From the NCBI GenBank assembly GCA_011773515.1, contig WVXK01000023.1, positions 67,263 to 131,262 of the forward strand: a stretch of DNA of 64,000 nt. The letters are read 5' to 3'. Within the stretch, counting starts at the first letter, position 1; each line of letters begins with the position of its first letter. Positions 49,042 to 59,687 of the stretch are shown here, one piece after another. The notes under the pieces are model-generated. The model was not told the origin of the DNA. It was given only the letters and a program-made list of their open reading frames with translations, and did not search any database. The position numbers were made by a program, and so were the translations under genes. This DNA is from Deltaproteobacteria bacterium. GTDB lineage: Bacteria; Desulfobacterota; Deferrimicrobia; J040.

Positions 49042-49821
49042 TTATTTGAAGTCCCTTTTCGAAAAAATGAAGTTCGAAATGAAAATGAGTAGCACGAGAT
49101 AAAAGAAGAAGTAAAGGAATACGTAGCCTATCTTTCCTGCATCGAGGTGTACCCCGTAAACTGCCACGTTCTTGAAGTTGAAGTTCTCAAGATTCGGAAG
49201 TATGTAATACACGGCGAGGGGCAAATACTTACCAAGGAGCGTCTCCGCCCTCTCGCCAAAATATTTCAGGTCAGGGCTCAGGTGCCCGATAAAAAATATC
49301 GAAAGGGTGAAGATGGCACTCAAAGTAGTCGTTGTGAAGGAAGAAAACAGCATGGCAACGGCCGTTAGGATCAGCAGCTCGAGGTAGATCATAAGAGCGA
49401 CGAAAAGAATCTCCATACGGATGTGCCCGCTCTGCACGAATGTGGTCAAAATGAGGCCAGAGGTCATTGCAAGGTTCGTGAGAAAAATCGTGACGGAAAG
49501 CCCCGAGAACTTACCGATCAAGAATGCGAACCGGGACACCGGCTTTGAGACGATAGCGTAAATGGTTTTTTTATCCACCTCTTTGCTGACAAGGGTAATA
49601 CCGACGAAGATCGCGATAATCGCCCCAAAAATGTGCACGCATGCAAGGCCCACATTTATGACTACTCGCTCGAAATCTCCCAGGGACAACTCGGCGATGA
49701 AGTAGGACAGGCCGATCAAAAGGATAGCGAACATGAGGAGGCTGTAAAGTATACGATCCCGGATAGTCTCCCTGAACGTATTGACAGCGATCGTCCCGAC
49801 GCTCATGCAACTACCCTCCAA
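49042..49821 (-). CDS. ABC-2 family permease (PilI/GldF-like)
   Basis: 259 aa, about 6 TM, no nucleotide-binding domain; overlaps the upstream ATPase gene by 11 nt. Confidence 0.7.
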   Translation of the reverse strand: MEGSCMSVGTIAVNTFRETIRDRILYSLLMFAILLIGLSYFIAELSLGDFERVVINVGLACVHIFGAIIAIFVGITLVSKEVDKKTIYAIVSKPVSRFAFLIGKFSGLSVTIFLTNLAMTSGLILTTFVQSGHIRMEILFVALMIYLELLILTAVAMLFSSFTTTTLSAIFTLSIFFIGHLSPDLKYFGERAETLLGKYLPLAVYYILPNLENFNFKNVAVYGVHLDAGKIGYVFLYFFFYLVLLIFISNFIFSKRDFK

Positions 49822-50743
49822 CCTTTTCTATGAAGAGTTCTTCGAGATTTACCCTTACCGGAATGATGGCCGTTATGTTACCCCTTGCGTCTCGTGCCGC
49901 GTCGATCACCCTGTTTGCCGACACTTCAGAGGGAACGTGAAATACGAGGACGTTCCCCCGTAAAAAATGTGATACGAACGAGGCGTTCAATGCAGCGATG
50001 AGCTCATCGGTTCTCTCGATCCCCTCAACGCAGATCTCATAGTATTTAATGGCCTCTCGTCCCAAGAGATCACCGATCCTGCCCTCTGCAACCTTTCTCC
50101 CTCTGTGAAGAATGCACACTCTGTCGGCAAGGAGTTCAACATCGGAAATTATGTGGGAGCTGAAAAAAACCGTTTTCCCTCTATTTTTCAAATCCCGGAT
50201 CAGCTCCCTGATCTCCAGCCTTCCGATAGGATCGAGACCGGACATGGGTTCGTCGAGAATCACCAGTTCCGGGTCGTTTATCAGAGCCTGAGCCATCCCT
50301 ATTCTCTGAAGCATACCCTTCGAAAACTTCCGGAGCTGCAGGTGAATCGCATCTTTCAACCCCACGATCTCCAGTAACTCTTCTGCTCTTCTCTCCCGTT
50401 CCCCTTTTTTCAAACCGAAGAGGTTCCCGCAGAACATGAGGATCTCCCAGGCGGTGAGGTATTCGTAAAAATATGGGTGCTCCGGCAGAAACCCTATTCT
50501 CTTTTTCTGCTGCACGTTACCGAGTGGCTCATCGAATATCCTCACCTCTCCTTCTGTAGGATATATGATGGAGTTGAGAATCTTAATCGTCGTGGTTTTA
50601 CCAGCCCCGTTCGGACCCAGGAACCCGTATAGTTCGTTTGTATGCACGGATAGAGATATCCCATCGAGGGCCACAAAGGGCTTGAGAAAAAATCCCATTC
50701 GGTAAATTTTTTTCAGTCCCGTAATCTTGATAGCCTCTTCCAT
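49811..50743 (-). CDS. ABC transporter ATP-binding protein (PilH/CcmA-like)
   Basis: Walker A GPNGAGKTT, signature FSKGMLQRIGMA, Walker B LVILDEPMSGLD; 310 aa. Confidence 0.85.
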   Translation of the reverse strand: MEEAIKITGLKKIYRMGFFLKPFVALDGISLSVHTNELYGFLGPNGAGKTTTIKILNSIIYPTEGEVRIFDEPLGNVQQKKRIGFLPEHPYFYEYLTAWEILMFCGNLFGLKKGERERRAEELLEIVGLKDAIHLQLRKFSKGMLQRIGMAQALINDPELVILDEPMSGLDPIGRLEIRELIRDLKNRGKTVFFSSHIISDVELLADRVCILHRGRKVAEGRIGDLLGREAIKYYEICVEGIERTDELIAALNASFVSHFLRGNVLVFHVPSEVSANRVIDAARDARGNITAIIPVRVNLEELFIEKVGG

Positions 50744-50763: not shown

Positions 50764-51645
50764 TTACCTTTTCTTGTAAAGCCGTAATCTCTCTTTTACA
50801 ATCGAACTCTTCACGTTCCCCGTATCTCTCTCTATATAGTAATACCCCCCAAATGGCTCCTTCGGTATCTCCCCGAGCAAGCCCAGTCTCACCAGATCAC
50901 CCAAGGTTTCCGGGCTCTTTCCCTTGATATTGCTGTACTCATTTGCGGCGATCTGGAGAAGGTTCAAATCTCTTTCAACGACGACCCGCTTCATCCTGCC
51001 CTCGATTTTTTCCCTCAGTACGGGATCTTCAGTCTGATTATACATCTTCTCCAGAAAAGCAAGCGCCGTATCGGGTTTATTCGCCTCAGAAAGCAGCCGC
51101 GAGGCCAGAAAAGGGAGATAGGCAGGGGAACCGGGTAACTTGCTCGCCATAATGATGTACTCCGACGCCAGGTCGAATTGCTGGAGATAAAAAAAGTAAT
51201 TAAAGCCGATATAGAAAGGAAACCTCCACCTATCGGGGAGATTTCGCATCCCCTTTTTTAGGACGAGGATGCTTTCATCGACAAAGTCACGATGGGAAGC
51301 GAGGATGATCCCTCCAAAAAGATAGGCCGTCTCGAACTTCCTATCGAGAGTAGTGACGAGGTCCAAAGAGCGGTACAACCAGTCGAGGCCGTTTACGGTA
51401 TATTGCTTTTCCCCGGCATATTGAACGCACCTGAGCCAGGTGACATCACTGACGAACGCATCGAAACCCAGTGAAAATCTTTTAACAGCATCCACATCGG
51501 GAAGAAAGATGTATTTTGCCTGCGAGATTTTTGTTCGGTTGTCGATAACCATCTGCGTTGTTGCCGAGGATATAACGAGAACAAGGGCTATGAACAGAAC
51601 CGGGAGAGAACGTATCTTCATATCGAGCTCTTTATTCTCGTTCAT
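50764..51645 (-). CDS. Hypothetical exported/membrane-anchored protein (PilG-like position ahead of the ABC pair)
   Basis: 293 aa; N-terminal hydrophobic segment LPVLFIALVLVISSA then a helical repeat-like domain. Assignment is by position only. Confidence 0.5.
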   Translation of the reverse strand: MNENKELDMKIRSLPVLFIALVLVISSATTQMVIDNRTKISQAKYIFLPDVDAVKRFSLGFDAFVSDVTWLRCVQYAGEKQYTVNGLDWLYRSLDLVTTLDRKFETAYLFGGIILASHRDFVDESILVLKKGMRNLPDRWRFPFYIGFNYFFYLQQFDLASEYIIMASKLPGSPAYLPFLASRLLSEANKPDTALAFLEKMYNQTEDPVLREKIEGRMKRVVVERDLNLLQIAANEYSNIKGKSPETLGDLVRLGLLGEIPKEPFGGYYYIERDTGNVKSSIVKERLRLYKKR

Positions 51646-53568
51646 CGATTTTTACCCGTAAGTCATTCAACGTCTGATCATCAAGCATAATCAGTTTTTC
51701 GGCATACGTGTCGAGTCCTTTAAGCCCTGCGTATTTTTTATATACAGAGAGGGCCCTCTTGTAAAGAAAGCTCGCCTCTTCCTTTTCTCCTCGTATTTCT
51801 CTCATTTTACCAAGAAGGTAATATCCAATGGCAAAATTCGGCTCCGTTGATACGGCTTTCACCAATATCCGCTCTGCTTCACCGTTTCTGCCTGACTTCG
51901 AAAAGAGAGTCGCTAGATTTTTCATCGCAAAAACATTGTGGGGTTCGATGACGAGTTGTGCGGAATAGAGGCGGATGGACTCCTCATCAAGGTTCCCCAC
52001 TTCATCATTTGTATAGAGCCCTCTATGTATTCCCTGCTGCAAGAGAAAAGCCTTCCTTCCGCGGAGCGAAGCGGACCTCTTCTGTCTTCGTAATGCATTT
52101 TCCACCTCGTAAATCGCCATCTTAAAGTGAAATATATCCCCTTTTTTCAGAAACGTTCGGTAATGAATCGCCCCTTTCGTCTCATGCTTTCTCCCGTCCA
52201 GAAAGTCAGCAGCAGTTGCCACGCGCAACAACGTGATTGCAGAATCGAAGCTGCCCATGCGCGCCTGCCGCTCCCCCAGAGAGGAAAGATAGAAAGAGCT
52301 GACCGTAGCCGTACAGTAGGTCACCGAGGCGACGGTAAACAGGGCGAGGGGTACCTTCATCCCCTTCCGGAGAACTGCCTCCTCCCATTCGATTTCGGCT
52401 TCACCGATATAGAGCCCCACAATGGCAAGCATGACGAGAGGCAAAGCGAAGGTGTGATAGAGCGAATCGACTGAGGCATGCACCAAAAATGATGCCCCCG
52501 CACCGAACGTGATCGCTCGCAACGGGTGAGGGACGCTTCTCGGCGGAAAGATGATCTTCAGGAGCAGCGAGATCACAAATCCAAGGTAGAGGATCAATCC
52601 GATCACCCCCTGTTCAACGAGAACCTGGAGGTGCTCGTTGTGCAGGGTCCGAGCCTTTTTTCCATACAGCGACACGGCTCCGGCAACGGGAGATTCATAT
52701 TGATCGTAGTAATATTTGAAGTTGCCGAGACCGACCCCGAGGGGATGGTCCGACACTACACGCAGGCCCGCATCGTAGATGCTCAAACGAGAATACCGGT
52801 AAGCGTCTGCCCGCGATACTACTCTTTCCCGCAGGGGATTGGGAAGGACAGCGAAAAGGACGAAAAATGAGAGGATGATGGCAAGCGCCTTCCATCTCAG
52901 ACGGAAAAACAGAACCAGCGAGATGCCGGTAAGGCACGATATGGCTGCACCTCTCGACTTTGTGAGGATAAGAGCTGCAAGAGACAGGAGGAAGAAAAAT
53001 ATGTAGATACCTTTGTCCCTCACCCGATCTTTTCCAAACAGGGCCAGTGCGATGAACACGATGGAAGAGATGCTCATCAGCTCACCCATGAAATTCGGGT
53101 TGAAGAACGACCCCGCCGGCCTCGGGTCGTGAAGGACGAACCTCTGATAGAGTTGTAATCCCATCCCCACGATCACTGACAGGGAGAGGAAAAGAGCAAG
53201 ATGGTGAATTCTAACCGTACGCCGTCTTGCGGCATCGGTGATCAGAGCGAAAAAGGATAGGCACACCATGATATTTATGGCCCACTGAAGCGAGGGCCAA
53301 GGGGCTGAAGCGATCGCTCCGTTTACGAAGGATATGAGAGTATAGGAGGTGAAAAAAAAAGCGGGAGGGTGAAATTACGGGGGATTCCAAACCCACCTCT
53401 TATGAAACATAACGCCAGGACGAGAATTGTACCCACCCTTATGAGAAAAGTGGGCAACGGGGTGGTGCCACCGTTCACGAGGGAAAGTCCCAGCAATAAA
53501 AAAAGTGGCAGAGAGGAAAATACATTCCCCTCTGCCACTTGGTTCTCACAAACAATAGAATTCATCAA
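51632..53568 (-). CDS. O-antigen ligase family (Wzy_C) polytopic membrane protein with C-terminal TPR repeats; reading frame interrupted at an A9/T9 homopolymer
   Basis: ORF 53323..53568 (81 aa, two TM helices) and ORF 51632..53269 (545 aa) are in different frames. Adding one T (or removing two) at the tract fuses them into ..PRNFTLPLFFF-TSYTLISFVNGAIASAPWPSLQWAINIMVCLSFF... The Wzy_C signature ..ALILTKSRGAAISCL..RTLHNEHLQVLVEQGVIGLILYLGF.. is present, and the C-terminal ~200 aa are TPR-like. Confidence 0.6.
53352..53360 (-). repeat. Homopolymeric A9 (plus) / T9 (coding strand) tract at the frameshift inside the O-antigen-ligase-like gene
   Basis: Plus 53351-53361 reads G AAAAAAAAA G. Confidence 0.9.
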
Positions 53569-53571
53569 ACC

Positions 53572-54054
53572 CTACACGTCGTTTGCAACGTTTACCAGAG
53601 AGTTCAAGTCGTTGATGGTCCATGAATCTAGGTCGGCATCGTTGTCTATGTTCCCGATCGCCCCAGCGGTGAACTGGTTTTGGCCCACGTCGATATTAGC
53701 GAGACCAGCCGTGTCATCGATAGTATCTGTAGATATGATAGAAAAATCAGAGCCTGGCCCCGGAGGGGTCGCGATTCCCTGATCCCCGCCGAGAGCATAG
53801 TCGTAGCGCTGACTCGTCCCCACGGGTTCCCAGTTGACCGCGTCGAACGTATTGTAGGTGCTGTACTCCCCAAAGTAAGATGTCTCAGCGGTGTATACCG
53901 CCTTCAGGTTCGTCTTCGCCTCGGACTGCTTCGACTTTGCCTGGAACTTAAGAAAGTTGGGGATCGCTATCGCCGCGAGAATACCGATAATCGCCACAAC
54001 GATCATCAGCTCGATGAGGGTAAAACCTTTTCTGCTTCTCACTCTTTTAATCAT
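53572..54054 (-). CDS. pilA: Type IVa major pilin PilA (copy 2)
   Basis: AGGAGG (54060-54065) then ATG at 54054: MIKRVRSRKG|[24 protein letters not shown]... The ORF track extends to 54159 via an upstream TTG, which is unlikely. Mature protein ~150 aa with no Cys. Its stop lies 4 nt before the ligase-like gene. Confidence 0.9.
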   Translation of the reverse strand: MIKRVRSRKGFTLIELMIVVAIIGILAAIAIPNFLKFQAKSKQSEAKTNLKAVYTAETSYFGEYSTYNTFDAVNWEPVGTSQRYDYALGGDQGIATPPGPGSDFSIISTDTIDDTAGLANIDVGQNQFTAGAIGNIDNDADLDSWTINDLNSLVNVANDV

Positions 54055-54142
54055 TTTTTCCTCCTTGTTGGGTATTGTATAAGTCTGATCAGATCCGTTC
54101 AATTTTTTTTTCCTCCTTAACGAAATATTTACCCAATCAATT

Positions 54143-54160
54143 TTCAACAATCGTGCCAAA
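54143..54160 (-). promoter_or_regulatory. Candidate sigma-54 promoter for pilA copy 2
   Basis: Minus strand reads TTGGCACGATTGTTGAAAA: GG and the -12 dinucleotide are spaced correctly, but -12 is GA rather than GC. About 90 nt upstream of the ATG. Confidence 0.3.
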
Positions 54161-54218
54161 ATCTATCCGAAAGAGGTTAAAACAAATTATCTTTTTTTTT
54201 CAAATGTTTGTCGGATTT

Positions 54219-54248
54219 AAAAAAAAAGACCGCGACGTTCGAAGGTCT
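54219..54248 (-). terminator. Putative intrinsic terminator after pilA copy 1 (weak 5-bp stem followed by U9 on the minus strand)
   Basis: Minus strand: AGACC-TTCGAACGTCGC-GGTCT then T9 (plus A9 at 54219-54227). Confidence 0.3.
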
Positions 54249-54317
54249 GGGATTGGCAAATTGTGACAAAATTTGTCAGGAAAATGGAACCTATGTGACA
54301 TTTTGCGTCCGTAAATT

Positions 54318-54755
54318 TTAAATGTCATCGATTAGATTTACAAGGTTCTTTATCTGGTCAATCTGCCAGATATCGTACGTTACATCCTGATCCAGGTTTC
54401 CCCAAGAGTATGCGCTGAACGATATGTTATCCGCCCCGGGTGTGATGCCTGCCGGAACGGGGTCGCCGATGCCGTACAGTTCACTTCCGACGGAATATGT
54501 GTAGTATTTGAGGGTACCCACGGGAACCCACCGTATCGTTGAAAAACTAGCAGAATACATGTCGAATTCGGCATAATATGAGAGCTCGCAATTATATATG
54601 GCACCGAGGTTCGACTTTGCTTCTGATTTCTTCGTTTTCGCCACGAAGTTGTTGAAGTTGGGAATTGCAATCGCCGCAAGAATACCGATGATGGCAACGA
54701 CGATCATCAGTTCGATGAGGGTAAAGCCATTCTCATCTTTCTCAATTTGAATCAT
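54318..54755 (-). CDS. pilA: Type IVa major pilin PilA (copy 1)
   Basis: [10 protein letters not shown]|[24 protein letters not shown]..; 145 aa. The first 24 mature residues are identical to copy 2; the C-terminal domain diverges. Confidence 0.9.
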
Positions 54756-54791
54756 TATCTTTTCCTAGATTCGTCTTAGGTTTGAATTGCG

Positions 54792-54811
54792 TGCATAAAA
54801 CATGCCCAGCT
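54792..54811 (-). promoter_or_regulatory. Candidate sigma-54 promoter for pilA copy 1
   Basis: Minus strand reads CTGGGCATGTTTTATGCACG: GG and GC separated by 10 nt (-24 GGGCAT, -12 ATGCA). About 25-40 nt upstream of the RBS and ATG. Confidence 0.4.
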
Positions 54812-54847
54812 AATCCTCTACAGGAAAGCCCGACCGATTACCGCTTA

Positions 54848-56245
54848 TTACTCGATACCATATTTCTCCAGGCGATACCGCAGGGACCTGAAGGATATCC
54901 TCAACAGTTTCGCCGCCTCCGTTTTGTTTCCCCCCGCACGTTCGAGCGCCTTGAGGAGGAAGTTTCTTTCTATATTGCCGACAATCCCGTCAAGAGACGT
55001 CCCCTCCAGGGAGAGGCTTTCATAATATTCTGGAAGTTCATACTGCTCGTCGCCTGTCTCGATGAGGTTTTCCGGAAGACTCTCCGGGGTCACCTGATCT
55101 TTCAGTTCGAGGATTACCGCCCTCTCGATAATATTCTCCAGCTCCCTTACGTTGCCCGGAAAATCGTATCTCATGAGCATCCTCATCGCGTCGGGTGAAA
55201 TCTTTTTTATCTCCTTACCAATTTCGATCGCGTACCTGCTGAGGAAATGATGGGCCAAAAGGGGTATATCCTCCTTCCTGTCCCGCAGGGGAGGAACATG
55301 AATGGAAACAACGTTCAGACGGTAAAAGAGGTCATCTCTAAAGCTTCCATTTTCCACTGCATCGAGGAGGTTTTTTTTCGAAGCGGAAACTATCCTCGCA
55401 TCTACCCTGATGAGGTCATTGCCGCCAACCCGCCGAAAAGCCTTTTCCTGAATTGCCCGCAGAAGTTTTCCCTGCAACGGGTTCGGCATCTCACCGATCT
55501 CATCGAGAAACAGGGTTCCACCGCTTGCGAGTTCAAAGAGGCCCTGCTTATTGTTTATGGCACCGGTAAACGCACCTTTCACGTGACCGAAGAGCTCTGA
55601 TTCGAGAAGAGATTCGGGTATGGCAGCACAGTTTATCTCGACAAAAACATTTTCAAATCTTTCACTCTTGTTGTGGATAGCCCTTGATATAAGCTCTTTC
55701 CCCGTTCCCGATTCCCCGAGTATCAGAACGTTTGCATTCGTGGGAGCGATTCTATCTATGAGTTCGAATGTTTTCGTCATAGTTTCCGAAGCCCCGATGA
55801 TAAACTCATATGACAGCTTTTTCTTGACCTCCTCCCGCAACGCTATGTTGTGCAGGGTAATGTCCTTCTTTTCCAGAGCCCGCTCGACGAGGATGCTCAA
55901 CTCCTGATTGTCGAAGGGCTTCGTCACGTAATTGAACGCGCCCTGCCTCATGGCTAACACGGCGTTTTCAATGGAGCCATGAGCAGTCATAATGATAACC
56001 TCTGTCTCGGGGTGGGATTCTTTCACTCTTGTTAAAACACGAAGGCCGTCATCTCTGGCAGCCATTTTCATATCCGTTATCACCACATCGTACACGTGGA
56101 GAGACAAGAGCCGGTAGGCATCCTCAACTGTTCCCCCCGTATCCACAAGGTATCCGTTTTTCTTGAAGAAGATTTCAAGAACGGTTCGGATGCTCTCCTC
56201 GTCATCCATGATCAATATATATCTCTGGCCGTCTTTACCCTTCAT
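54848..56245 (-). CDS. Sigma-54-dependent response regulator (second PilR-like paralog, no adjacent kinase)
   Basis: REC (..[22 protein letters not shown]..), AAA+ ([25 protein letters not shown]), C-terminal HTH. The start overlaps the topA stop by 11 nt. Confidence 0.85.
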
Positions 56246-58628: not shown

Positions 58629-59687
58629 TCAGGCAAGCCTAAAGTAATAGCCGTCCGGACCCCTTTCAACAAGTTTTTTCACCTCCAGCATGACCAGTGC
58701 TGCAGAAACATCCTTAATGCCTTCGGTCATTACAGAGGCAACATCATCAAGAGACATTCCGTCTGTCAGTATCTCCAGCACCCTCGTTTCGATTTCCGTC
58801 ATGTCGGGATCGTTTCTTCTTTTCCGTTTTTTTTTCGGCTTTGTCGCTGAAAGGCCAAAGGCTTCCAGAATGTCTGCAATGCCTGTCAATGGATGGGCAC
58901 CGTTTTTTATCAGCCGGTTGGCCCCCTCAGATTGGGGAAAAAGGGGATTTCCCGGAACCGAAAAAACCTCTTTTCCGTATTCAGCGCCATACCTGGCTGT
59001 GATGAGGGAACCACTCTTTTGCGCCGCCTCTACGACGCACACAAAATCAGATAGTGCAGCAATGATGCTGTTCCGGATGGGAAAATTCCAACCAAACGGT
59101 TGCGTGCCCGGAGGGAACCGGGAGAGCACGCAGCCCGATTCGATAACCTCGTGGTAGAGCTCTTCATTTTCCCCCGGGTAAATAACGTCCACCCCGGAGC
59201 CGAAAACGGCTACCGTTTTCCCGTTTCCCTCAAGGGCCCACCGGTGAGCACAGGTATCGATTCCTCTTGCAAATCCGCTTATGACGGGAATGTCATTCAA
59301 TGCCATCTCTTCGGCCAGCTTCCTGCAGAACCTGAGGCCCGCCTGGGTTGGCTTCCTCGAGCCCACGACTGCTCCCGCGAATCTTTCAACAATCGAACTA
59401 TCTCCCCTTACATACAACGCGGGCGGGGCATATCCTGTATGTTTCAATTTATCGGGGTAGGAGGTATCCGGGTACGCGATTATGGAGATATCATTCCCGT
59501 CACAATATTCAACGATCTTGCCGGCTTCCCCCGGGAACGTGCCCCTGCTGAGAACCTCACAGACCCGCCGGGCGCCCAGACGAGATTTGCCGGATGAAGA
59601 ATCGCCCTTTATGAACGCGAGAGCATCTTCTGACGATATATGGACATGCGACGATAAATATATGAAAAGGAGTCTTTCGTTCTCCAT
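58629..59687 (-). CDS. dprA: DNA-processing protein DprA (Smf)
   Basis: Rossmann-like DprA core (..VVGSRKPTQAGLRFCRKLAEEMA..ISGFARGIDTCAHRWALE..TVAVFGSGVDVIYP..) and a C-terminal winged-helix; 352 aa; upstream of topA as is common. Confidence 0.9.
   Translation of the reverse strand: MENERLLFIYLSSHVHISSEDALAFIKGDSSSGKSRLGARRVCEVLSRGTFPGEAGKIVEYCDGNDISIIAYPDTSYPDKLKHTGYAPPALYVRGDSSIVERFAGAVVGSRKPTQAGLRFCRKLAEEMALNDIPVISGFARGIDTCAHRWALEGNGKTVAVFGSGVDVIYPGENEELYHEVIESGCVLSRFPPGTQPFGWNFPIRNSIIAALSDFVCVVEAAQKSGSLITARYGAEYGKEVFSVPGNPLFPQSEGANRLIKNGAHPLTGIADILEAFGLSATKPKKKRKRRNDPDMTEIETRVLEILTDGMSLDDVASVMTEGIKDVSAALVMLEVKKLVERGPDGYYFRLA

What the first reader, a model, noticed from the sequence alone, without database searches (positions are those of the whole stretch)
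53269..53568. O-antigen-ligase-like gene split by a frameshift at an A9/T9 homopolymer - candidate phase-variable switch
The N-terminal 81 codons (two TM helices, 53568..53323) and the 545-codon body (53269..51632) are in different frames. The coding strand carries T9 (plus A9 at 53352-53360) exactly between them. A +1 or -2 slippage gives one continuous, plausible membrane-protein ORF of ~645 aa. Homopolymer slippage is the classic ON/OFF mechanism for pilin-glycosylation genes in Neisseria (pgtA, pglA, pglE and relatives). Three more 9-nt homopolymers lie in the nearby pilin intergenic region.
Basis: seen in the sequence. Interest (0 to 1): 0.7.

Follow-up and report, generated by a model that had tools for sequence, protein, structure and literature searches.

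The report
Conserved T9 frameshift in pilin-linked ligase gene
A WaaL-like membrane enzyme gene next to the pilin genes can only be read as one protein if an extra U is added, or the ribosome slips back one base, at a run of nine Ts; the same run and frame break are kept in every known relative of this clade, which points to built-in recoding rather than an on/off mutation switch.

Summary
On the minus strand, a T9 run (53352-53360) lies in the 49-nt overlap between an 80-codon N-terminal ORF (53565..53323) and a Wzy_C+TPR body (open 53374..51632). One extra T gives a 644-aa protein. It is collinear with uninterrupted homologues and is predicted to have a WaaL-like fold, with one confident helix crossing the junction.

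The phase-variation reading is not supported. Eight assemblies, representing five distinct sequence lineages (71-90% DNA identity), all carry exactly T9 and the same split. No in-frame relative of at least 64% identity was found. Intact homologues (39% identity or less) have no run at this position. Purifying selection switches from frame A to frame B at the run. The conserved APWPSLQW motif lies in frame B with no start codon upstream of it.

The best explanation is programmed recoding. RNA-polymerase slippage adding one U, as in Shigella mxiE, is the most likely route. A -1 ribosomal slip on U_UUU_UUU is the alternative. No stimulatory RNA structure was found. A strong, conserved pilin terminator sits inside the first 25 codons, so the enzyme would be made only from read-through, shifted messages.

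This is a new member of a known kind. It is untested at the read, RNA or protein level.

The parts
53352..53360 (-). T9 run (U9 in the mRNA). It is the proposed recoding site, and in frame A (CUU UUU UUU UCA) it also reads as the -1 slippery heptamer U_UUU_UUU.
   Evidence: The run is identical in length and position in L001, L002/L005/L017, L003, L018/L097/L098 and L096.
53323..53565 (-). N-terminal ORF in frame A (80 codons from the ATG; TAA at 53325-53323). It encodes TM1, TM2 and the first half of TM3 of the ligase-like protein.
   Evidence: dN/dS is 0.28-0.33 in frame A against 0.5-1.8 in the other two frames. The ORF aligns to the N-termini of the intact homologues P0005 and P0006.
51632..53374 (-). 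Frame-B reading frame (-1 relative to frame A). It encodes the rest of the WaaL-like membrane domain (Wzy_C) and a C-terminal TPR domain. The first ATG comes only at 53269.
   Evidence: dN/dS for 53350-53270 is 0.01-0.30 in frame B and 0.36-5.4 in frames A and C. Body dN/dS is 0.18-0.22.
53326..53374 (-). The 49-nt overlap in which both frames are open. The shift must occur here.
   Evidence: One search gives the stop positions of frames A and B, with equivalent geometry in the orthologues (246-nt frame-A ORF in all four, 1740-nt frame-B open stretch in three, 1743 in L003).
53306..53365 (-). Nearly invariant nucleotide block TCCCGC-T9-CACYTCCTAYACTCTCWTATCCTTCGTAAAYGGAGC, including the conserved frame-A stop. 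Synonymous sites here are more conserved than the gene average.
   Evidence: 0.75-0.85 identical codons in this block against a gene mean of 0.43. The block is among the top windows in the gene but is not unique.
53494..53540 (-). A 16-bp GC-rich hairpin followed by a T7 tract. It is an intrinsic-terminator-like element 30 nt after the pilin-2 stop, embedded in codons about 9-25 of the N-terminal ORF.
   Evidence: Folding energy is -28.8 kcal/mol with z = -7.8. Across 5 lineages, 98.8% of cells are paired and 2 pairs carry compensatory changes. Equivalent hairpin plus T-rich tract occur in the intact homologues L004 and L007.
53572..54054 (-). Pilin 2 (PilA-like, Myxococcus type). Its stop codon lies 6 nt upstream of the ATG of the ligase-like gene.
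54318..54755 (-). Pilin 1 (type IV pilin-like).
54145..54158 (-). Sigma-54-type -24/-12 element TGGCAC-N5-TTG upstream of pilin 2.
   Evidence: Related TGGCAY-N5-TTG elements lie at the same place in L002, L003 and L004.
54848..56245 (-). PilR-like sigma-54-dependent response regulator.
50764..51645 (-). Conserved 293-aa protein with no family match. It overlaps the end of the ligase gene by 14 nt and is syntenic in all relatives.
49811..50743 (-). ABC-transporter ATPase, the first gene of a polysaccharide-export-like ABC-2 cluster seen in the relatives.

Best explanation
The T9 run is a conserved, programmed recoding site. The genome encodes the WaaL-like, TPR-tailed membrane protein in two frames, and the full 644-aa protein is made only from messages or ribosomes that change frame at the run.

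The most likely route (about 60% of this explanation) is transcriptional slippage. RNA polymerase realigns on the 9-bp rU:dA hybrid and adds one untemplated U, so a fraction of mRNAs carry U10 and read straight through (L-F-F-F-T). The alternative, or an additional contribution, is a -1 ribosomal slip of two tRNA-Phe on U_UUU_UUU, which yields the same peptide. Unshifted decoding stops 10 codons later and gives an 80-aa two-TM peptide.

The gene starts 6 nt after the pilin-2 stop, and a strong intrinsic terminator lies inside its first 25 codons. Only terminator read-through transcripts reach the run. The inferred effect is that the enzyme is held at a small, fixed fraction of the abundant sigma-54/PilR-driven pilin.

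Shown here: the sequence geometry, its conservation, the switch of the selected frame at the run, collinearity with intact homologues, and a continuous predicted helix across the junction.

Inferred: that slippage occurs in this organism, its efficiency, which polymerase or ribosome step is responsible, and the stoichiometry rationale. A role in pilin or surface-glycan ligation is inferred only from the fold and from the gene neighbourhood.
For: 1) Exactly T9 with the same split occurs in five distinct lineages from eight assemblies made by different pipelines. These are the window, L096 (100% identical over 6243 bp), L001, L002=L017, L018~L097 and L003. Pairwise DNA identity is 71-90% and dS reaches 1.2.
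2) The frame under selection switches at the run. N-terminal dN/dS is 0.28-0.33 in frame A only. Between the run and the first ATG, dN/dS is 0.01-0.30 in frame B only. Body dN/dS is 0.18-0.22.
3) APWPSLQW is conserved in the intact homologues P0005 and P0006. In this clade it lies in frame B, downstream of the run and upstream of any ATG/GTG/TTG.
4) The T10 repair is gap-free against the 645-aa P0005. AF2 gives pLDDT 86.5 and pTM 0.83, with helix 63-84 spanning junction residue 71. The membrane domain matches the whole WaaL chain 7tpg_B, with a target-normalised TM-score of 0.68.
5) The frame change is confined to this clade. It occurs only in loci that carry the T9 run. The other homologous loci whose match reaches this region (82) read through the junction in one frame.
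6) No full-length relative of at least 64% identity exists in a database of 5.8 billion protein clusters.
7) From the literature: bacterial RNAP slips efficiently in vivo on runs of 9 A or T, and its hybrid is 9-10 bp (PMC5009743). In Shigella mxiE, insertion of one untemplated nucleotide at a run of Us puts two overlapping ORFs in frame (PMC1088944). PTR sites are typically homopolymers of 8 nt or more kept under purifying selection (PMC3711429).
8) No SD-like element lies upstream of the run, and no conserved structure lies 5-9 nt downstream. This favours slippage over classical stimulated -1 PRF.
Against: There are no read-level, RNA or protein data, so slippage and its efficiency in this uncultured lineage are unproven.

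The sample is small. At the tract itself the five lineages fall into two deep groups (window+L003, and L001/L002/L018), and the locus is recombinant, so the lineages are not fully independent.

In-frame A9 runs exist in other genes of these genomes: window 58827-58835, and the ABC-2 permease gene of L002 and L003. So 9-mers are not obviously avoided, which could mean low slippage in this lineage.

Every T of the run is also constrained by hydrophobic codons (Leu and Phe, with T at second positions). Conservation of the bases alone is therefore weaker evidence than conservation of the frame break.

The enhanced synonymous conservation around the run has no identified cause. Sequence alone cannot separate transcriptional from ribosomal shifting.
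Confidence: 0.7

Rival explanations
1. DNA-level phase variation. Replication slippage would toggle T9 (OFF) to T10 or T7 (ON) in subpopulations, and all sampled consensus sequences would happen to be OFF.
For: A T9 run is also slippery for DNA polymerase, and surface-glycan and pilus genes are typical contingency loci (PMC3711429). The tract lies near the 5' end of the gene. Consensus assemblies cannot show minority alleles. Genes held in a reversible OFF state can resist decay (PMC6959607).
Against: All eight assemblies and five lineages have exactly T9. There is no T7 or T10 (ON), and no other OFF length such as T8, T11 or T12. No full-length allele exists among relatives of at least 64% identity. 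dN/dS of about 0.2-0.3 on both sides of the tract, with dS up to about 1.2, is what is expected of a gene that is continuously expressed. Length variation between strains, the hallmark of contingency loci, is absent.
Confidence: 0.14
2. A truly split gene or a fixed pseudogene. Either the 80-aa peptide and an N-terminally truncated body (starting at ATG 53269 or later) are made separately, or the body is not made at all.
For: Gene callers annotate it this way: 510-, 528-, 545- and 507-aa bodies and a separate 80-aa ORF. Removing two TM helices would keep the membrane topology parity. ATG 53269 is present in 4 of 5 lineages.
Against: Codons 73-99 of frame B are the most strongly constrained part of the gene (dN/dS 0.01-0.3) and have no start codon upstream. 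In L003 the ATG is replaced by TTG. The junction lies in the middle of a single confident helix. The intact homologues are single chains. Purifying selection on both halves excludes a decaying pseudogene.
Confidence: 0.07
3. A sequencing or assembly artefact: the true sequence is T10 and the homopolymer is systematically under-called.
For: Homopolymers are the classic site of length errors, and all the sources are metagenome assemblies.
Against: The same T9 appears in independent samples and in records from different sources: the NCBI MAG, Logan assemblies of four different runs, JGI, and SPAdes-style NODE contigs. No other real gene in the 64 kb is split at a homopolymer. In-frame A9 runs elsewhere are read correctly.
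Confidence: 0.03

Closest known systems
Shigella flexneri mxiE (and spa13/mxiA/spa33) transcriptional slippage
   Same: Two overlapping ORFs of a cellular, non-mobile gene are joined when RNA polymerase inserts one untemplated nucleotide at a run of Us/Ts. The longer, functional product needs the slip. No stimulatory structure is required (PMC1088944; PMC5009743).
   Different: The protein class differs (an AraC regulator against a polytopic WaaL-like membrane enzyme), as do the host and the locus. Here the site lies inside a TM helix and downstream of an embedded terminator. Slippage has been shown experimentally for mxiE but not here.
Thermus thermophilus dnaX slippage run, and the -1 PRF of E. 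coli dnaX and of IS elements
   Same: A 9-nt A/T homopolymer serves as a programmed site that gives two products at a set ratio. The same outcome can be reached by polymerase slippage or by a -1 ribosomal shift on an X_XXY_YYZ heptamer (PMC1088944, PMC3711429).
   Different: In dnaX the shifted product is the shorter one. The -1 PRF sites of E. coli dnaX and of IS elements use A_AAA_AAG with an upstream SD and a downstream hairpin. No such stimulators were found here.
Neisseria pgl phase variation (pglA, pglE, pglH, pglG)
   Same: Both involve a frameshift-prone repeat inside an ORF of a protein or pilin glycosylation pathway.
   Different: In Neisseria the repeats are polyG or multi-nucleotide repeats in cytoplasmic glycosyltransferases, and their lengths vary between and within strains (PMC6959607). 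Here a T9 of invariant length lies in a Wzy_C-type ligase-like gene.
WaaL O-antigen ligase (PDB 7tpg) and the pilin-linked Wzy_C enzymes TfpO/PilO and PglL
   Same: The Wzy_C domain is above the Pfam threshold. The SRG and H-N-x-H...E-x-G motifs are invariant or nearly invariant within the family alignments. The predicted fold matches WaaL. The gene lies immediately downstream of a pilin gene, as tfpO does in Pseudomonas (the Pseudomonas arrangement is from my own knowledge, not tested here).
   Different: Sequence identity to WaaL is only 19%. There is an extra C-terminal TPR domain of about 230 aa. The PglL_A and Wzy_C_2 domains are not matched. The NCBIfam hits are far below their cutoffs. 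The substrate is unknown.

Membership tests
Wzy_C / O-antigen ligase-like (GT-C-type) membrane proteins | Match to Pfam PF04932 above the gathering score | tested here: met
   62.9 bits against a cutoff of 31.7, residues 190-328.
Wzy_C / O-antigen ligase-like (GT-C-type) membrane proteins | Polytopic WaaL-type fold that includes the N-terminal helices | tested here: met
   AF2 pLDDT 86.5. The top Foldseek hit is 7tpg_B WaaL, with a target-normalised TM-score of 0.68 and 416 aligned columns for a 403-residue target.
Wzy_C / O-antigen ligase-like (GT-C-type) membrane proteins | Conserved periplasmic-loop Arg and His residues | tested here: inconclusive
   S204, R205, R248, R260, G277, G279 and G320 are invariant and H309 is nearly invariant across 19 homologues. 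H309, E311 and E318 are invariant in the 7-sequence alignment. Equivalence to the catalytic residues of WaaL was not mapped residue by residue.
Pilin O-oligosaccharyltransferases (PglL / TfpO-PilO) | PglL_A or Wzy_C_2 accessory domains, or a family-specific model hit | tested here: not met
   Only Wzy_C and TPR models hit in Pfam. The best NCBIfam hit is TIGR03097 at 44.7 bits against a cutoff of 188.
Pilin O-oligosaccharyltransferases (PglL / TfpO-PilO) | Demonstrated glycosylation of the adjacent pilin | not testable with these tools
   Only gene adjacency was seen: the start codon is 6 nt after the pilin-2 stop.
Programmed transcriptional realignment (slippage) sites | A/T homopolymer of at least 8-9 nt at the frame junction | tested here: met
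   T9 lies inside the 49-nt two-frame overlap. The criterion comes from PMC3711429 and PMC1088944.
Programmed transcriptional realignment (slippage) sites | The site and the frame transition are conserved among orthologues, with both ORFs under purifying selection | tested here: met
   Five lineages carry it. The dN/dS values support it.
Programmed transcriptional realignment (slippage) sites | mRNA population heterogeneous in run length while the DNA is homogeneous | not testable with these tools
   There is no access to reads or transcriptomes.
-1 programmed ribosomal frameshifting | X_XXY_YYZ heptamer in the zero frame, with the downstream ORF in the -1 frame | tested here: met
   The sequence reads CU U_UUU_UUU CA in frame A, and the body is in the -1 frame.
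-1 programmed ribosomal frameshifting | Stimulatory element: a hairpin or pseudoknot 5-9 nt downstream, and/or an SD-like sequence upstream | tested here: not met
   The only downstream structure is a weak 5-bp hairpin starting about 20 nt after the run. There is no covariation and no GGAGG upstream. There is no Rfam match.
Phase-variable contingency locus (slipped-strand mispairing) | Tract length polymorphic among or within strains, with both ON and OFF alleles observed | tested here: not met
   All eight assemblies and five lineages have T9. There are no ON-length relatives. Within-population variation could not be tested.

The most novel reading that the evidence does not exclude
The T9 site may be a regulated rheostat rather than a fixed attenuator. 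Insertion of extra U at U-runs by RNA polymerase depends on UTP supply. If so, the fraction of in-frame ligase mRNA would follow the UTP/UDP-sugar pool that feeds the glycan substrate. Together with read-through of the embedded pilin terminator, this would couple glycan-ligase output to both pilin transcription and nucleotide-sugar availability. The 80-aa two-TM product of unshifted decoding could be a functional partner or inhibitor. This would be the first programmed recoding event described in a Wzy_C/WaaL-type enzyme and in a type IV pilus locus.
Probability: 0.1. Interest if true: 0.8.

Novelty: new member of a known kind. Interest (0 to 1): 0.6.

Why it matters
Few cellular (non-mobile, non-phage) bacterial genes are known to need programmed frameshifting or transcriptional slippage. 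The known examples include prfB, dnaX, mxiE/spa and a handful of others. If confirmed, this would add a polytopic glycan-ligase-like enzyme of an uncultured deltaproteobacterial clade to that list.

It would show how a very abundant structural gene (pilin) and a low-copy enzyme can share one transcription unit, using a terminator followed by a recoding site.

It also warns annotators. In this clade the gene is called as a truncated "hypothetical protein" plus an orphan 80-aa ORF, and a frameshift at a homopolymer in a surface-structure gene is easily mislabelled as a phase-variable gene or a pseudogene.

Tried and rejected
1) A stimulatory RNA structure. RNAalifold on -90..+100 and single-sequence folds found only a weak hairpin (CCUUCG-UAAA-CGGAG) starting about 20 nt after the run. 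They also found a window-specific hairpin abutting the run that is not conserved in L001, L002 or L018. There is no covariation, so this was rejected as evidence.

2) The T9 as the U-tract of a second terminator. The terminator scan did not flag it.

3) Rfam search of 52900-54900. It returned only a chance sub-threshold snoRNA hit.

4) Enrichment of 9-mers. The count is not above the shuffles. The pilin-region 9-mers are not conserved.

5) Avoidance of 9-mers in coding sequence as an argument for slippage. This was rejected because in-frame A9 runs occur in other genes.

6) Length conservation beyond the heptamer as a way to tell slippage from -1 PRF. This was rejected because the two extra Ts are second codon positions of hydrophobic residues.

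7) A search for more orthologues or ON alleles. The N-terminal peptide query and the profile query found only the same lineages.

8) Literature searches for transcriptional slippage together with O-antigen ligase, and for a Geobacter pilA-adjacent ligase. Both found nothing.

9) The UCACCUCCU motif just after the run equals the 16S rRNA 3' end (from my own knowledge), so it cannot act as an SD. Its complement, AGGAGGTGA on the other strand, lies about 20 nt from the nearest start of an antisense ORF, which is too far. This was not pursued.
Full report
**Observation**

On the minus strand the window reads ...CCC GTA ATT TCA CCC TCC CGC TTTTTTTTT CAC CTC C... with T9 at 53360-53352. Frame A opens after the pilin-2 stop. 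Its start is TTG 53568 or, more plausibly, ATG 53565, which lies 6 nt after the TAG of pilin 2. It ends at the TAA at 53325-53323. Frame B opens at 53374, has no ATG, GTG or TTG until ATG 53269, and runs to 51632.

The body lies in the -1 frame relative to the N-terminal ORF. One extra T (or the loss of two) gives a single ORF of 644 aa (or 643 aa). The two frames are open together for only 49 nt, and the T9 lies inside that stretch.

The count of 9-mers in the window (5) is not above chance: shuffles give 2.8 +/- 2.2. In a screen of all homopolymers of 7 nt or more, this is the only real gene in the 64 kb that is split at a homopolymer.

**What the gene is**

The repaired protein matches Pfam Wzy_C above threshold and has TPR repeats at its C-terminus. 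NCBIfam gives only sub-threshold hits, the best to a putative O-glycosylation ligase model whose alignment runs across the junction (residues 49-337).

An AlphaFold2 model built on 19 homologues is confident (pLDDT 86.5, pTM 0.83). It places junction residue 71 in the middle of one helix, residues 63-84. The best solved-structure match is the WaaL O-antigen ligase 7tpg_B, aligned over essentially its whole length with a target-normalised TM-score of 0.68. The remaining matches are TPR proteins.

The neighbourhood on the minus strand is, in order:
- a PilR-like sigma-54 activator
- pilin 1
- a sigma-54-type promoter
- pilin 2
- this gene
- a conserved 293-aa protein of unknown family
- an ABC ATPase

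The related loci continue with ABC-2 permeases, a Wzt-like ATPase and methyltransferases.

**Related sequences**

The window comes from a MAG labelled "Deltaproteobacteria bacterium" (locus tag GTN70_03200). There the body is annotated as a 510-aa hypothetical protein.

Every close relative in a database of 5.8 billion protein clusters is also called as a truncated body (545, 528 and 507 aa at 79, 78 and 64% identity). The nearest full-length proteins are only 39% and 38% identical.

Fetching the DNA showed why. The following loci all carry CCCGC-T9-CAC with the same two-frame geometry:
- L001 (SRR29850986)
- L002 = L005 = L017 (GCA_964347065.1 / JABAOH010001707.1)
- L003 (SRR24270832)
- L018 (JGI 3300022226)

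A search with the 80-aa N-terminal peptide added two more. L096 is a Logan assembly of ERR2564003 that is 100% identical to the window over 6243 bp. L097 (SRR7134473) is 99.9% identical to L018. Both have T9.

In total there are eight assemblies and five distinct sequences, 71-90% identical over the gene.

The intact homologues L004 (P0005, 645 aa) and L007 (P0006) have no long T run at this position (T5 and T6). The frame change occurs only in T9-bearing loci. Eighty-two other homologous loci read through the equivalent position in a single frame.

The T10 repair aligns without a gap to P0005 across the junction.

**Which frames are under selection**

Nei-Gojobori estimates show that the N-terminal 68 codons are constrained only in frame A: dN/dS is 0.28-0.33 there, against 0.5-1.8 in the other two frames. 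The 28 codons between the run and the first ATG are constrained only in frame B: 0.01-0.30, against 0.36-5.4.

That segment contains APWPSLQW. The motif is conserved in the intact homologues and here differs between lineages only by synonymous changes.

The body has dN/dS of 0.18-0.22 with dS between 0.28 and 1.25. The gene has therefore been functional for as long as these lineages have diverged, and the frame that matters changes exactly at the run.

Together with the single helix across the junction, this excludes a decaying pseudogene. It also makes two independent polypeptides very unlikely.

**Mechanism**

Frame B can be reached in two ways, and both give the same peptide, L-F-F-F-T.

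The first is RNA-polymerase slippage on the T9 run, producing U10 mRNA. Bacterial RNA polymerase slips efficiently in vivo on runs of nine A or T, a length that matches its 9-10 bp hybrid (PMC5009743). In Shigella mxiE, insertion of one untemplated nucleotide at a run of Us puts two overlapping ORFs in frame (PMC1088944). Conserved homopolymers of 8 nt or more are the signature used to call programmed transcriptional realignment (PMC3711429).

The second is a -1 ribosomal shift. In frame A the run reads CU-U_UUU_UUU-CA, which is a perfect heptamer for tandem tRNA-Phe slippage.

I found none of the usual stimulators of -1 frameshifting. There is no SD-like sequence upstream. There is no conserved hairpin or pseudoknot 5-9 nt downstream. 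The only nearby structure is a weak hairpin starting about 20 nt after the run, and it shows no covariation. Rfam has no match.

I therefore favour polymerase slippage, roughly 60:40, but the sequence cannot decide between the two.

A block of about 55 nt from just before the run to just past the frame-A stop is nearly invariant. Its synonymous sites are conserved at 0.75-0.85, against 0.43 for the gene as a whole. Three other windows in the gene score as high, and I have no explanation for the block.

**Expression context**

Thirty nucleotides after the pilin-2 stop, inside codons about 9-25 of the N-terminal ORF, there is a 16-bp hairpin followed by T7. Its folding energy is -28.8 kcal/mol with z = -7.8. 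Across the five lineages it is 98.8% paired, with two compensatory pairs. A different hairpin with a T-rich tail occupies the same place in the intact homologues L004 and L007.

It looks like the pilin terminator, and its U-tract doubles as the Phe/Leu codons of TM1.

From this I infer that the ligase-like enzyme is made only from transcripts that read through this terminator and are then shifted at T9. That arrangement would keep a membrane enzyme at a small fixed fraction of a very abundant pilin. This rationale is an inference and has not been shown.

**Why not phase variation, and what remains open**

A contingency locus should show tract-length differences between strains and should include some ON alleles. 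Here the length is exactly 9 in every lineage, and no ON allele exists in the databases searched.

Several caveats apply:
- Consensus assemblies hide minority alleles.
- At the tract the lineages reduce to two deep groups, and the locus is mosaic.
- In-frame A9 runs in other genes show that 9-mers are tolerated in these genomes.
- There are no RNA or protein data.

I put programmed recoding at about 0.7, phase variation at about 0.14, a split gene or pseudogene at about 0.07, and an artefact at about 0.03.

**Novelty**

The mechanism is of a known kind. The gene family, the locus and the combination with an embedded terminator appear to be undescribed: searches for transcriptional slippage together with O-antigen ligase found nothing. 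I rate it a new member of a known kind, with an interest score of 0.6.

Noticed in passing
window 53494-53540 (minus strand): A very strong terminator-like hairpin (16 bp, -28.8 kcal/mol, z -7.8) plus T7 lies inside the first 25 codons of the ligase-like ORF, 30 nt after the pilin-2 stop. It is conserved, with compensatory changes, in all five lineages. A hairpin of different sequence occupies the same position in the intact homologues L004 and L007. The terminator's U-tract also encodes the Phe/Leu start of TM1.
   Followed up: yes
window 53100-56245, compared with L002 and L003: The locus is mosaic. From pilR through both pilins to about 53150 the window is closest to L003 (up to 94% in pilin 1). 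From about 53100 downstream it is closest to L002 (80-97%) and only 60-77% identical to L003. This suggests recombination of the pilin module with a breakpoint 150-250 nt downstream of the T9 run.
   Followed up: partly
window 54145-54158, 54264-54278 and 54296-54310: A sigma-54-type TGGCAC-N5-TTG element lies upstream of pilin 2. Further upstream are two TGACA-N5-TGTCA-like palindromes (one perfect, one with a mismatch). Equivalent elements occur in L002, L003 and L004. They are probably the PilR-dependent promoter and its enhancer sites.
   Followed up: partly
The minus-strand T9 at 54219-54227 follows a weak hairpin after pilin 1 and looks terminator-like. The minus-strand A9 at 54103-54111 is the spacer between a GGAGG and a TTG, upstream of the likely pilin-2 start.
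   Followed up: yes
window 58827-58835; L002 9645-9653; L003 9591-9599 (window equivalent 49566-49572, A7): In-frame A9 runs occur on the coding strand in other genes without any frame break. One is in the 352-aa ORF 58629-59687. Another is at the same position of the ABC-2 permease gene in L002 and L003 (A7 in the window). Slippery 9-mers are therefore tolerated in the coding sequence of these genomes.
   Followed up: partly
window 53341-53351 (minus strand); plus-strand ORF 53369-53782: Immediately after the T9 the mRNA reads UCACCUCCUAU, which matches the 3' end of 16S rRNA (the anti-SD sequence, from my own knowledge). Its complement is a perfect AGGAGGTGA on the other strand, upstream of an antisense ORF that a gene caller predicted in L002 (5536-5853). 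The spacing to a start codon (about 16-20 nt) seems too long for it to work. The conservation of this motif remains unexplained.
   Followed up: no
L037 4187-4220: A distant intact homologue (26% identity) has an in-frame T8 (TTA TTT TTT TTG, encoding LFFL) at about the homologous TM position. Phe/Leu-rich TM codons naturally generate long T runs, which gives a plausible evolutionary origin for the T9 site.
   Followed up: no
window 50764-51645 (minus strand): A 293-aa protein has no Pfam or NCBIfam match. It overlaps the ligase gene's stop by 14 nt and is syntenic in every relative, including the intact-gene loci. It is likely a functional partner of unknown role.
   Followed up: no
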